Shown: positions 21,001-30,000 of the stretch, in pieces
Layout of the letters: every line of letters starts with the position of its first letter
Position numbering within the stretch: the first letter of the stretch is position 1
Assembly (NCBI GenBank): GCA_963514005.1
Contig: OY740814.1
Location: 12,400,001-12,464,000 of the forward strand
DNA: 64,000 nt
Direction: 5' to 3'
DNA from: Raja brachyura
Lineage: Eukaryota
Made by a program: the position numbers

Positions 21001-24000
21001 AATGTTTTTTACACCTATATTACAAACAAAATGGTAATCATGTAGAAAGTAGGACTGGTCAAGGATCAAGAAGGGAATTTGTACGAGGTGTCTGGGGAGG
21101 TAGGTGAGGTACTAAACGGGTACTTTGCATCTCTTTTTACCAATAAACAGACTTGGAGGGTAGTGCGATAAGTGCAGAGAATAGGTTAATTGGCCGTAAA
21201 TTGCCCTTAGTGTGTAGGGAGTGGATGTGAAAGTGAGATAATATAGAACTAGTGTAAATGGGTGAGAGATGATCGCCGTGGACTAGATGGGCCAAAAGGC
21301 ATGTTTCCATGCTGTATTTTTTTCAATCAACCTTTCAATCAATATTAGTATGCAAGGGCATCTTGAGATTAAGGTGGAGGTGATGTCGGTGTTCTTAAAC
21401 CATTAAAGTGGTTAAATACCTTGGACCTGATGTGATATACCCTAGGTTATTGAGAGAGGCAAAAGAGGAAATTGCAGAAGCCTTGACAAAGATCTTTGTG
21501 TCTTCTCTAGCCAGAAGTGACATACTGGAGGACTGGAGAGTAACTAATGTTGTTCCGTTATTTAAGTAAGGAAAATCCAGGAAATTATAGTTCAGTGAAC
21601 CTCAAGTCAGTAGTTGGGAAGCTTTTGGAGAAGATTGTTTGGGATAGGATTTACTCGGAATATAGATCGGCTCCAGAAGCAGGTGGGGAAATGGCAGATG
21701 GAATTTAATCTGAGCAAGTGTGAGGAAAGATATGGGGGCTTTGGAAAGGGTGCAGAGGCAGTTTACCTGGATCTGAGGGTATACGGTTCAGGGAGGGGTT
21801 GGGTGGTCACGGTGGCGCAGCAGTAGAGTTACTGCCTTGCAGCGAATGAAGTGCCAGAGACCCTGGTTTGATCCCGACTACGGGTGCTGTCTGTACGGAG
21901 TTTGTACGTTCTCCCCGTGACCTGCGTGGGTTTTCCCAGAGATCTTCGGTTTCCTCCCACACTCCAAAGACATACGTGTTTGTAGGTTAATTCGATTGGT
22001 AAATGTAAAAATTGTCCCTAGTGGGTGCAGGAGAGTGTTGATGTGCGGGGGGATCGCTGGTCGACGTGGACCCAGTGGGCTGAAGGGCCTGTTTCCGCGC
22101 AGTATCTCTTATAACTAAACTAAAACCTGGATTGTTTTCTCTGGAATACCGGAGGTTGTGGGGAGACCTTATAAAAGAATATTAAATTGAAAGGCATAGC
22201 TAGTGGAGACAGAATCTCTTTCTTTGGATAGAAAAATCAAATACTCGAGGCATAGCATTAAGGTACGAGGGGCTAAGTTTTAAGGATATCTGTGGGGGAA
22301 GTTTTTTTCCATACAGAGGGTGGTGAGTGCCTGGAACGCGCTGCCAACGTTGGTGGTTAGCTGATATGAAAGTAGAATTTCAGAGACTGGATATGCAAGG
22401 AATGGAGGGATATGGATTATGTACAGGTAAATAAGAGATGGGCTTGACGTCATGTTCGACACCGACATTGTGGGCCAAAGGGCCTGTTCTTGTGCTGTAC
22501 TGTTCTATGTTCAACTTTTTGAATAGGGTTTTCAAAGCAGAGATTAAAAGATGAATGGAGAGAGGTTTAGTGTTAACTCAGTTGAATACTTTTACAAAGT
22601 GAATTGAGGGAGGGGGAAATAGAAAAATTGTTCTGTAGCCTTGGATAATGCAATCTTGTTGCATTTGTTTGCTATTCTTTTCTTAAGTTTATGGTATCAC
22701 TGACTGAGCTAATGCAGACTGTTGTTTTTGATTCTGCTACATTCTTTTCGGTGACCATTATAACCTCTGCTACCTGTCCACCTAGGAAGTATGAGAGCTA
22801 TATTTAAAAATTACCTAAGAAAGACACAAAAAGCTGGAGTAACTCATTACCTTGTTAGTTCAATGAGAAGGCTGGAAATAAGACAACATTATGTTTTATA
22901 AAAGCGTATGCAGAGGGCACTCATTGTTTAAGGGTAGGATTGGTCATAGAGAACTATACTGTACAGTAAACCCTCGTTTTGACAGACCTTTTTATAATGG
23001 ATTTCAGTTATAGCGGACGAACCTGCCGATGGCTGCCTTGGCTCACACAGCCGCTTGCCTACAGACCCGGCTGCCCATGTCACCCCTGGCCCCCACCCCC
23101 TCTCCAGCTGCTTCCAGGTGTTTGCTGCTACCGCCGACTTTTACCTGTATTATGACTGCCTACAGGCCACGACCATTGACTCCACCGATCCCTGCCCCTC
23201 CCCTAGTCGCCAGCAGGCCAGGGCCGTCAACTCACTTGGATTCCAGACCCAGTTCCAGACTGCGAGTCTGAAGAAAGGCCTCGAAAGGAAAAGTCACTTA
23301 TCCATGTTCTCCAGAGATGCTGCCTGACCTGCTGAGTTACTCCAGCACTTTGTGTTCTTTTATGTATTAACCAGCAACTGCAGCTTTTGGTTCTGCTACT
23401 TATACAATGATAATATCGTACTTGGTTATAGCGGACATTCGGCAATAACGGACAGCATTCCACCCCCCTCCCCATGGTCCATTATAACAAGGGTTTGCTG
23501 TATTTTGTTATGTCTCAGTTGGCGTTGGTTACTAAAACGAATAGATGCAGCCTCAATGGAAATACCCATCATGAGGAATTAAAAAATGTATATGTGAAAG
23601 ATAGACTACAAACTGGTGCAGAGAACTTGTGTTATTTTTTTCCTTGGTTCTTGAAGCCATCTGTAGGCGTATGCTTGTTTTATTACCGAAAGATAACATA
23701 AAGGGAAAAGGCAATAAAAATGCATGCTTTCAGAACACATTACCACCTTTCAGTCCTGAGATTAAACAGTAAATTGAACTGCCAACTGTCACGTGCTCAT
23801 TCTTACGAATTCGGGGAAATCAGCTTGACCTTCCATGCGTGTGTTGTTGATGTACTGCATTTGGTTTAAAGGCCAGTCTGGTGTGAAGTAACGCACAGTT
23901 TTCTGTTCTGTATTGTGGCTTATGGTTAGTTTTTTATGTATTTTCAGGTGAATTTGAAGGTAAGAATGGCAGTGAGTACAACAACCAAAGCCATAAGAAT

Positions 24001-27000: not shown

Positions 27001-30000
27001 ACAAGGAAGCTGTTTCAATGCAGTTTTAATTTGTTTGATGATAAACAATGATTATTATTCCTCGATCTTTGAGCCATATTGTTGAAATATTTCTGAATAG
27101 AGGATACATTTTAGATTATTTTGGTTTATTTTGAACTAAATGTAACTCGTTCGAAAAGAATATACTCAGTAGTTAGTGCTAAATTAGGAAAAATAATAAT
27201 CAAACTGATGCGGCCTAAATTCACTTGTCTCCAATATTCCTAATTTTTTATGTTATTATATATTATACTTTTTATGTTCTTGTTTTACTCCCATTTATTT
27301 CCTTGCCCTGTGCTTCAATAATTGTTGTTGGCTCTCTGGTACCAGACTATGGGGTAAGGCTAAATCTGGCACTCCTTCGGTTTTATGCATCTGAAAACCA
27401 ATCTCGAATCTTCTAGGCTACATGGCTTTGTGCTTTGTCTAAGGATATTTTTGTTCATTAGACCATCAAGAAAACTGCCAAACTGTTCAGATCCTCAATT
27501 GCAGATATAATCTAAATGCAGTTCTTGCTTGAACTTGTGAATTATTTGTTTACGTTTATTTGTGAGTTGATACTTCACTGTATTGGCCATTTACTTTGTG
27601 CATATCCACTGAATCTCTTTTCCTCAACATGCCAGTGTGAGTGACACTAAATCTGAGGGAAATGTATCTGCATTATTGCATTGAATCAGACAACTGCATG
27701 TATACACAAATAATGATTGTTCATTAGTTACTGTTGAGGTGACTTTTCCGGGTGTCACCAATTTATTTGAAGTTTCAAGAGCTATAAGTGAAAGTTTGAA
27801 CATCAAGATGGGTTTTGTAAAAACAAGATTATACTTGCATTTTCAAATGCCATGTAAACCTTCAACTATTGCTCTCCATTTTAAATATAACAATATTTAG
27901 AGAACCCAACTGGCTGCATTAATAAGCATTAAAAAATAATCTGGCATAACAGTGCTATGAACTAATGCTTTAAAAATTAAGAGCAGGGATGAGAAGTTTT
28001 CCTCCTGGGTTATCTCATTTGAAAGTGGACCAAAGGGTTTAGTTGGTGGCTGCCTGGAAATTGTCAGAAGAAAATATAAACTAAATTGACTGAAAAAACT
28101 GTAATTTACATTGGGAGAAACTACATGAATTAAGGTGCATCTTTTCAAAACAAAAAACGAATATTTAAAAATCAAGATAAAAAGAACACAATTTTTGTAA
28201 ATACTAGTCTAAAAATTGAGCTAGCATAGGGAAGCTTGTATTAGGTGGATTTTACTGTTGCAGTTTAAGACATTATGTAAGGGGGAAAAACTGGTTCACC
28301 TCCTCAGAGGACCACACGGCAGTTGTAATAGTGTTGTACCTAAAATTTAAGAAAATAAAATTGGATAAGTTAAGTGAGTAGTTTCAAATGTAATTTTGTT
28401 TATATACTAATTAATAGGCTTTTGGCAATCTAAAGTAAAACAAAATGTTGGCAACATTCAGGAAATCCGGCCTCTTCTGCAGAGTTGATTTTGCATCTAG
28501 TGAATAATTTAAAGCACTTTTGTGTTTGTAGCTTAATATTGGCCTGCTCATTGTTTTAGTGAGTCATCGCTTTATTTCTTGTGATCATTTTGCACAACTT
28601 GGATGATCTGCAAAAGTAAAAGCTCAAAAAAAATTGCTTTATTCTTGTAAAATCTTTTTTTAACTTGTGGAAATTATCATTTGTTAATGTGCAAAACACG
28701 TATATTTATGTGCACAAAGTAGGGTAAACATTAATTTTCAATTGAAGCTGAAGAAAGTGAAGAGTTGAATTCTTGTTTAAAGTATAGATGACCTGACTGC
28801 TACAGCTAATGAAATATCAACCGTCACATTTATATAAAGAACACTTTGGAAAATTGTGGTTATAGATATTCTTTGGGTTGCATTACTGCATTTATTTCAC
28901 AAATCATTATCCCATCACTTACATGTGAATGGTAGATAGATCTTCCATATTTATCAAGTAACCATCCAGTAATGCACTGGTAAGATAATATCCAAAAGTC
29001 TTTTTTTGATAGTGCGATGGTATGTTTTGTTTTGGATAATTGCAGGGACGACCCAAATACAAGAACTGCAGAAAATTGTAAAACGAATACATGAAGAAGA
29101 ATTGAATGATATGAAGGATGATCTATTTCAGTGCCAAAAGGATCAAGACTCCTATGCAGACAGTATGGTAGGTCATTAAATCATTGTTTCGCCGACTTGT
29201 GCAATTTTATTGGGAGATTATTTTGGTTGGGAAGGAGGGACACAAGGCTTACCTTGTGTACCTCCTTCCCAGTCAAAATAAATAACCTCCCAATAAAATT
29301 GTAAAATAAAAACAATAAGTAATTGTAAAATAAAAAAACAAATAATGTATATTAGCATTCGGTATGTCAAGAAGCAAAATTGATTAGTCTCCTGAGGAAC
29401 AATTTCTGAACACGTCAGAAGTGTTGAATACTCTTTTGTGTGGCTTTCACTGTTATGCAACTTTCAAAATGTGTGAATTTGTTGAGATTAATTGATGAGC
29501 AGGCCCTCTGAAAATCTTTAGGAGAAAAATTGCTGAATTTTGCCTTTGCCTTTGGGGCATGTGTATGTTTTCAAGCATTCTTTTCCAATTCCTGGCAATT
29601 AGATTGTTTAACTTATTCACTTTGCTTCCCAGATTGACCATGCTCTCTGTCTAACCATTAACAGTTCATGCAAACATTTTTCACCCTCTCTAGGTTTGTG
29701 CTTGTACTGTCTTCTTTCACCAATAGATCCTCCCCACCAATCGCTCATCAAAGCACAATTGTCCTGAGTTGACTTTACCATGTTCTGCAACTATCTTCCC
29801 TCAAGTATAATATGTTTAGTTTAGAGATACAATGTGAAAATGTGTTTGAACGTTTCATGCAGAATGTTGATCATGCATATTAAAATATTTGGATAGTCAG
29901 AAGGGTCTCGACCCGAAACGTCGCCATACATTTTCGTATTGGATATCCCTTATTTCCTTAGGAAATTGGCTGTCCTGTAGACGTCTGGGCACCTGAACTA

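What the first reader, a model, noticed from the sequence alone, without database searches (positions are those of the whole stretch)
23948..27353. Hidden four-microexon cassette (12+13+39+8 nt) right after the CCPG1 transmembrane helix
Seen in sequence: in the phase-1 intron 19869-29045, four tiny AG…GT units lie at 23948-23959, 25128-25140, 26399-26437 and 27346-27353. They total 72 nt and join with no stop: GHFY-GEFE-VVKTR-RLSRWQPVASEEG-LW-GTTQIQ. The 13-nt and 8-nt units each shift frame and correct each other, and much of 25.1-28.9 kb is unusually free of transposons. None of this is visible in the ORF track. Inference: a co-regulated tissue-specific splicing module that remodels the luminal juxtamembrane stalk of an ER-phagy receptor. 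I have an unverified recollection of a similar-length insert at this junction in predicted amniote isoforms; it is not used as evidence.
Basis: partly seen in the sequence, partly recalled or inferred. Interest (0 to 1): 0.9.

Follow-up and report, generated by a model that had tools for sequence, protein, structure and literature searches.

The report
Two real CCPG1 microexons, two chance ones
Of the four tiny exons proposed in this skate-like CCPG1 intron, the 12-base and 39-base ones are genuine alternative microexons already present in annotated shark and ray isoforms, while the 13-base and 8-base frame-shifting ones look like chance.

Summary
That property carries no weight. The intron holds 1,791 such units and 1.7e10 stop-free, frame-restoring four-unit chains; shuffled introns give 1.05-1.86e10.

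Homology separates the units. The 12-nt unit (23948-23959) encodes EFE, as in the GEFEG forms of Chiloscyllium and Scyliorhinus. The 39-nt unit (26399-26437), read in the native phase 1, encodes DFQDGSQLPLKR. That peptide is identical in 13 of 120 CCPG1 hits, from 10 elasmobranch species; an 11th, Chiloscyllium, carries a one-residue variant.

It depends on the 13-nt unit, whose splice sites are ordinary. The 8-nt unit has good sites, but equally good units arise in 76 of 100 shuffles. Either unit alone gives a stop in the next exon.

A 12-nt exon of this type also appears in teleosts, reptiles, birds and mammals. Scyliorhinus canicula has all four inclusion combinations, so the two exons are not obligately coupled.

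Verdict: an ordinary, already annotated pair of in-frame microexons. I found no discussion of them in the CCPG1 literature I could search.

The parts
19620..19868 (+). CCPG1 exon encoding the end of the cytosolic region and the transmembrane helix. It ends ...SMGFGHFY plus one base (phase 1).
   Evidence: 94-95% identical to Rhinoraja longicauda CCPG1. SMGFGHFY is invariant in 45 of 45 aligned CCPG1 proteins.
23948..23959 (+). 12-nt alternative microexon. It is in frame on its own and adds G-EFE in phase 1.
   Evidence: EFE. The same GEFEG is found in Chiloscyllium plagiosum X4 and Scyliorhinus canicula X9. Site score ranks 2 of 1,791 units. Chance expectation is 8.6e-5.
23960..23971 (+). Possible 12-nt extension of the microexon to a second donor (gtgagt at 23972). 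It is open in frame. Tentative.
   Evidence: Narcine bancroftii X2 has four extra residues plus an R at exactly this place. No direct evidence in this genome.
26399..26437 (+). 39-nt alternative microexon. It is in frame on its own and encodes (G)DFQDGSQLPLKR(G) in the native phase 1.
   Evidence: tblastn with Rhinoraja X3 hits 26398-26451. The 12 residues are identical in 13 of 120 hits, and 14 of 27 elasmobranch entries carry the exon.
29046..29167 (+). Next constitutive exon (TTQIQELQK...), the start of the first luminal helix.
25128..25140 (+).
   Evidence: Acceptor at the 57th and donor at the 65th percentile of intron sites. 655 of 1,791 units score as well, and shuffles give a mean of 692. 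Alone it gives a stop. No orthologue shows its peptide. A SINE-like repeat ends about 70 nt upstream.
27346..27353 (+). It has good-looking splice sites but no other support, and is judged chance (or at most an unproductive exon).
   Evidence: Rank 4 of 1,791, but 76 of 100 shuffled introns hold a unit at least as good, mean 1.9. Alone it gives a stop in the next exon. No orthologue shows its peptide.

Best explanation
The window carries a skate-like CCPG1 gene (ER-phagy receptor). The phase-1 intron behind its transmembrane exon holds two independent, frame-preserving alternative microexons. One is 12 nt (23948-23959, adds EFE plus G). The other is 39 nt (26399-26437, adds DFQDGSQLPLKR plus G).

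Each is a multiple of three and is read in the native phase. Inclusion of none, either or both inserts 0, 4, 13 or 17 residues directly after the invariant SMGFGHFY-G at the luminal face of the membrane, before the first luminal helix.

Shown: the exons, their splice sites, their identity to inserts in orthologous isoform models, and their independent combination in another species.

Inferred: the inserts lengthen and loosen the link between the membrane helix and the luminal helical stalk that carries the cargo-interacting regions. The 39-nt insert contains Gly and Pro, and the 12-nt insert adds acidic residues.

The 13-nt and 8-nt units are chance AG...GT pairs.
For: Gene identity:
- 120 CCPG1 hits were listed, the best being Rhinoraja longicauda at 94%.
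- tblastn maps exons from about 5.08 kb to 36.55 kb.

12-nt exon:
- It translates to EFE, the same GEFEG as in two shark isoform models.
- It has the second-best site score of 1,791 units.
- Four-residue inserts of the form G-x-x-x-G occur at the same junction in 25 of 120 hits.
- They also occur in 44 of 64 named new hits, including birds, crocodilians, a monotreme, a marsupial and placentals.

39-nt exon:
- It translates to DFQDGSQLPLKR.
- One search aligns Rhinoraja X3 to 26398-26451.
- 14 of 27 elasmobranch entries from 11 species carry it. A region-focused search found it in no other group: 22 hits, 14 with the insert, all elasmobranchs.

Independence: all four combinations appear among the Scyliorhinus canicula models.

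Structure, weak evidence only:
- AlphaFold2 on the insert-free S. canicula isoform gives helices 216-246 and 248-280 with a one-residue break.
- The isoform with both inserts gives helix 221-242, no regular structure at 243-267, and a helix from 268.
Against: - No transcript data exist for this genome, so use of the two exons here rests on orthology and splice sites.
- The isoform models of other species are mostly automatic predictions. Their combinations may in part be model-built.
- Both structure models have pLDDT below 50 across the junction (residues 1-270 and 1-271), so the helix-break picture is only suggestive.
- The crude site score placed the true 39-nt exon only 15th of 1,791, behind the unsupported 8-nt unit. 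Splice-site strength alone therefore cannot dismiss the 8-nt unit.
- Orthologous introns could not be aligned because no vertebrate genome collection was at hand.
Confidence: 0.87

Rival explanations
1. One reading: all four units form one cassette. The 13-nt and 8-nt units shift and restore the frame, so the 39-nt unit is translated in a second frame.
For: The chain is stop-free and restores phase 1. The 8-nt unit has good splice sites, rank 4 of 1,791. The 39-nt unit is open in the shifted frame too.
Against: - 1.7e10 such chains exist, and shuffles give as many.
- With the two real exons fixed, 4,731 alternative compensating pairs exist.
- The 13-nt unit has ordinary sites.
- The shifted-frame peptide is found in 0 of 120 orthologues, while the native-frame peptide is identical in 13 of 120.
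- Any partial inclusion gives a premature stop.
Confidence: 0.02
2. The 8-nt unit (27346-27353) is a real but unproductive ('poison') microexon. Its inclusion shifts the frame and sends the transcript to decay.
For: It has a good polypyrimidine tract and a gtaagg donor. Alone it gives a stop in the next exon. It would be invisible in protein isoform lists.
Against: A unit with sites at least as good occurs in 76 of 100 shuffled introns, mean 1.9. There is no conservation or transcript evidence of any kind.
Confidence: 0.05
3. The 12- and 39-nt inserts are artefacts of automatic annotation copied from species to species, not real exons.
For: Most carriers are predicted 'isoform X' models. I saw no transcript evidence directly.
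Against: - The window, read on its own, encodes the same residues between canonical AG and GT sites in the right phase.
- The inserts appear in records from several sources and naming schemes, including UniRef entries without an NCBI name such as Gopherus and Ornithorhynchus.
- The 39-nt peptide is 12 of 12 identical in 10 shark and ray species, and an 11th carries a one-residue variant, while neighbouring exons are 76-95% identical.
Confidence: 0.03

Closest known systems
Annotated CCPG1 isoforms of other elasmobranchs (for example Scyliorhinus canicula X3, X8, X9 and X11, Rhinoraja longicauda X3, Chiloscyllium plagiosum X4 and X8)
   Same: They have the same junction after ...GFGHFY, the same 4-residue insert (GEFEG) and the same 13-residue insert (DFQDGSQLPLKR plus G), in the same order.
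   Different: None found for the two real exons. The window's 13-nt and 8-nt units have no counterpart. Narcine has four further residues between the two inserts. The window could supply a counterpart only by using a second donor at 23972.
The 12-nt juxtamembrane exon of bony-vertebrate CCPG1 (GKPEG, GKREG, GKFEG, GKHGG and similar)
   Same: It has the same position, the same length and the same G-x-x-x-G frame. It occurs in teleosts, turtles, squamates, crocodilians, birds, a monotreme, a marsupial and placentals.
   Different: The residues differ: mostly K first in bony vertebrates and E in sharks. The second microexon is lineage-specific. It adds 13 residues in elasmobranchs, 9 (DK[KR]ENF[ML]FQ) in squamates and 5 (for example DKGEG) in some placentals. 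No sequence similarity between these was seen.
Vertebrate alternative microexon programmes (SRRM3/SRRM4-dependent neural and islet microexons; definition of 3-27 nt taken from abstracts listed)
   Same: The exons are very short, frame-preserving and deeply conserved, and they insert a few residues at a structured boundary.
   Different: Regulation is unknown here. No TGC lies within 40 nt upstream of the 12-nt exon, and only one (at -29) lies upstream of the 39-nt exon. The expectation that such a motif sits near the 3' splice site is recalled, not tested. At 39 nt the second exon is outside the 3-27 nt definition.

Membership tests
CCPG1 orthologue | Sequence similarity along the whole protein to named CCPG1 proteins, with collinear exons | tested here: met
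   (120 listed hits, 94% to Rhinoraja over the TM exon). (collinear tblastn hits from 5079 to 36550, 86-100% identity per exon).
CCPG1 orthologue | Single transmembrane helix ending in the invariant SMGFGHFY, followed by a long helical luminal region | tested here: met
   (invariant in 45 of 45). Helices are seen in the models, at low confidence near the membrane.
CCPG1 orthologue | Pfam families PF27631 and PF27636, as precomputed for the hits | tested here: inconclusive
   The local Pfam copy returned no family for the window exons, nor for P0022, which carries both labels. The copy evidently lacks these models.
Alternative frame-preserving microexon | Very short exon with canonical AG and GT sites and a length divisible by three | tested here: met
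   The 12- and 39-nt units meet this. The 13- and 8-nt units do not (lengths not divisible by three).
Alternative frame-preserving microexon | The same insert is present in some and absent in other isoforms of orthologues | tested here: met
   for the 12- and 39-nt units. 0 of 120 for the peptides that need the 13- and 8-nt units.
Alternative frame-preserving microexon | Junction reads or cDNA in this species, and tissue-regulated inclusion | not testable with these tools
   No transcript data or read collections were available.
SRRM4-type neural microexon | UGC-containing enhancer close upstream of the 3' splice site (feature recalled from the literature) | tested here: inconclusive
   no TGC in the 40 nt before the 12-nt exon, and one at -29 before the 39-nt exon.
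   (shifted-frame peptide in 0 of 120). (the property is expected by chance).

The most novel reading that the evidence does not exclude
The phase-1 intron behind the CCPG1 transmembrane exon may be an ancient microexon hotspot. A 12-nt exon is kept from sharks to mammals. Different lineages have added a second small exon of their own: 39 nt in elasmobranchs, 27 nt in squamates, 15 nt in some placentals, and perhaps a 12-nt donor extension in Narcine. Together these would tune the length and flexibility of the stalk between the ER membrane and the luminal cargo-binding regions of an ER-phagy receptor. This layer of regulation is absent from the CCPG1 papers I could search.
Probability: 0.35. 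Interest if true: 0.5.

Novelty: already known. Interest (0 to 1): 0.3.

Why it matters
For the scan, the case shows that 'the small units add up in frame with no stop' is worthless as evidence in a 9-kb intron. It also shows that comparing isoforms of orthologues can pick the real microexons out of the noise.

For biology, the interest is modest. CCPG1 is the ER-phagy receptor with a long luminal domain that binds cargo (abstract and passages of PMC10092646). The inserts sit right at the membrane-lumen boundary next to its most conserved motif.

The CCPG1 papers I checked do not mention isoforms. PMC10092646 and PMC5791736 have 0 occurrences of 'isoform'. The splicing-and-autophagy review PMC9117662 names CCPG1 only as a receptor. 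Isoform-specific ER-phagy assays would therefore be new work.

Tried and rejected
- Pfam gave nothing for the CCPG1 exons.
- Rfam found no RNA family in the intron.
- RBFOX-type TGCATG occurs 4 times in the intron against about 2.2 expected, and none lies within 60 nt of a unit. This gives no lead on regulation.
- Literature:
  - 'CCPG1' with 'microexon' found 1 paper with two unrelated mentions.
  - 'CCPG1' with 'SRRM4' found 4 papers. By title and abstract in the listing they are gene-list papers, and I did not read them.
  - The broader searches were dominated by papers without CCPG1.
  - Supplementary tables of microexon catalogues are closed and may list this exon.
- Structure models are too uncertain at the junction to carry weight.
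- Splice-site scoring used position frequencies recalled from memory, not a calibrated tool. It ranked the unsupported 8-nt unit above the true 39-nt exon, so I did not use it to decide.
- A possible homology between the elasmobranch 39-nt exon and the squamate 27-nt exon was considered and dropped, because I saw no similarity beyond the first residue.
- Not done:
  - Alignment of orthologous introns, because there is no vertebrate genome collection.
  - Any search or fold with a joined (spliced) model of the window.
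Full report
**What is there.** The window has no N. It carries a CCPG1 gene on the + strand. tblastn with Rhinoraja longicauda isoforms maps exons at about 5081-5156, 9915-10014, 11386-11468, 13909-14119, 19620-19868, 29046-29167, 31037-31162, 33489-34933 and 36.3-36.55 kb. The best protein hits to the transmembrane exon are skate, ray and shark CCPG1, with 94% identity to Rhinoraja. 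I therefore take the window for a skate-like elasmobranch, not human. The flanking exons are in phase 1.

**Is the four-unit chain more than chance?** No.
- The 9,177-nt intron has 601 AG and 550 GT dinucleotides, giving 1,791 AG-N(3..51)-GT units.
- A frame-tracking count finds 411 single units, 1.97e5 pairs, 6.8e7 triples and 1.72e10 ordered quadruples that restore phase 1 with no stop.
- Thirty dinucleotide-preserving shuffles give a mean of 1.35e10 quadruples, range 1.05-1.86e10.
- With the 12- and 39-nt units fixed, 4,731 pairs of frame-shifting units do what the 13- and 8-nt units do.
- The 13-nt unit has ordinary sites: acceptor at the 57th and donor at the 65th percentile. 655 units in the intron score as well, and shuffles give about 692.
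- The 8-nt unit has good sites, rank 4 of 1,791. Even so, 76 of 100 shuffles contain a unit at least as good.
- The scoring matrix uses frequencies I recalled, so it is only a rough guide. It put the true 39-nt exon 15th.

**What separates the units.** I searched exon by exon. The joined (spliced) model of the window was not built for any search or fold, so that step was left out.

The transmembrane exon alone (longer proteins) returned 120 listed CCPG1 proteins. Reading each one just after ...GFGHFY gave this census of 120:

| Junction form | Entries |
|---|---|
| No insert | 79 |
| 13-residue insert only (DFQDGSQLPLKR plus G) | 10 |
| Four-residue insert only (G-x-x-x-G) | 20 |
| Both inserts | 3 |
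| Narcine form: both inserts plus four residues between them | 1 |
| Callorhinchus form (GMLLECG) | 1 |
| Squamate forms with DK[KR]ENF[ML]FQ | 2 |
| Fragments that run into the intron | 4 |

- In the window the 12-nt unit translates to EFE. This is the same GEFEG as in Chiloscyllium X4 and Scyliorhinus canicula X9.
- The 39-nt unit, read in the native phase 1, translates to DFQDGSQLPLKR. This is identical in 13 of 120 hits.
- Rhinoraja X3 aligns to 26398-26451.
- Chance expectations for the two matches are 8.6e-5 and about 1e-14.

**Breadth.**
- Among the 27 elasmobranch entries, 14 carry the 39-nt exon (11 species), 6 carry the 12-nt exon and 11 carry neither.
- A search focused on the junction of the S. 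canicula isoform with both inserts found 22 proteins. The 14 with the 39-nt insert are all elasmobranchs.
- A search focused on the junction of a turtle isoform added 64 named proteins, after I left out 3 unnamed ones. Of these, 44 carry a 12-nt type insert: GKPEG in birds and alligator, GKPKG in platypus, GKPAG in a possum, and GKHGG or GKHEG in placentals. Some placentals add five more residues.
- That search favoured insert-bearing proteins, so these are not frequencies.
- The 12-nt exon is thus shared across jawed vertebrates. The second small exon differs by lineage.

**Independence.** The S. canicula models show no insert (X7, X10), 12 nt only (X9), 39 nt only (X3) and both (X8, X11). 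This argues against obligate coupling.

**How it probably works.** The inserts fall directly after SMGFGHFY, which is invariant in 45 of 45 aligned proteins. They fall before the first luminal helix (TTQIQ...).
- AlphaFold2 on the insert-free S. canicula isoform gives helices 216-246 and 248-280 with a one-residue break.
- The isoform with both inserts gives helix 221-242, an irregular stretch at 243-267, and a helix from 268.
- Both models have pLDDT below 50 here, so this is only suggestive.
- My inference is that the exons set the length and stiffness of the link between the membrane anchor and the luminal stalk. That stalk carries the cargo-interacting regions described for the human protein (PMC10092646, abstract and passages).
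- The topology of a cytosolic N-terminus, one TM and a luminal C-terminus is from PMC5791736 (passages).

**What is known.** The exons are already in public isoform models of related species, so this is not new as a feature. In print I found nothing on them.
- 'CCPG1' plus 'microexon' gave one paper with unrelated mentions.
- The two main CCPG1 papers have no 'isoform'.
- A review of splicing in autophagy names CCPG1 only as a receptor.
- 'CCPG1' plus 'SRRM4' gave four papers that look like gene-list papers from the listing alone.
- Supplements were closed and may list the exon.

**Left open.**
- No transcript data and no vertebrate genomes were at hand.
- The 8-nt unit cannot be excluded as a rare unproductive exon.

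Noticed in passing
window 23960-23977: A second strong donor (gtgagt at 23972) lies 12 nt behind the microexon's donor (gtaaga at 23960). The 24-nt form stays in frame. Narcine bancroftii X2 has four extra residues and an R at just this place, as if it used the distal donor.
   Followed up: partly
window about 40153-40374 (+), within a GC-rich stretch: A small ORF matches Pfam PIGBOS1 (PF23670, E 1.3e-12, residues 36-80 of the 40060-40374 frame). It lies about 3.6 kb downstream of the CCPG1 stop. That the two genes are neighbours in mammals is my recollection only.
   Followed up: partly
window 31037-31162 and the tail of 29046-29167: Some shark isoform models (Rhincodon X5-X8, S. canicula X8-X10) join ...CQKDQ directly to SQGENLE.... 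They skip the counterpart of exon 31037-31162, and sharks lack the skate and ray ...SY.DS. tail. This is a further alternative event in the same luminal stalk.
   Followed up: no
window 34919-34933 / 36329-36340: The two closest proteins differ at the last exon junction (...INQFGPC-PLY versus ...DNYINPSPLY). This suggests alternative donor or acceptor use near the end of the large exon.
   Followed up: no
window 24775-25059, 21800-22105 (-), 53962-54246, 2019-2193: A SINE-like interspersed repeat of about 280-300 nt has four copies in the window at 73-75% identity.
   Followed up: partly
window 16510-17523 (+), 42742-43269 (+), 815-1405 (+), 61338-62168 (-): Retrotransposon remnants. There are two reverse-transcriptase (RVT_1) matches, and two ORFs match the short ALKBH8_N model. 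The 42.7-44.9 kb region holds several long ORFs of one element.
   Followed up: no
orthologues (P0086, P0042, P0166, P0174; P0156, P0159, P0167-P0171; P0028): Other lineages have their own second insert at the same junction: nine residues DK[KR]ENF[ML]FQ in squamates, five residues such as DKGEG in horse, camel, oryx and otter, and GMLLECG in Callorhinchus. The same intron seems to have gained small exons repeatedly.
   Followed up: partly
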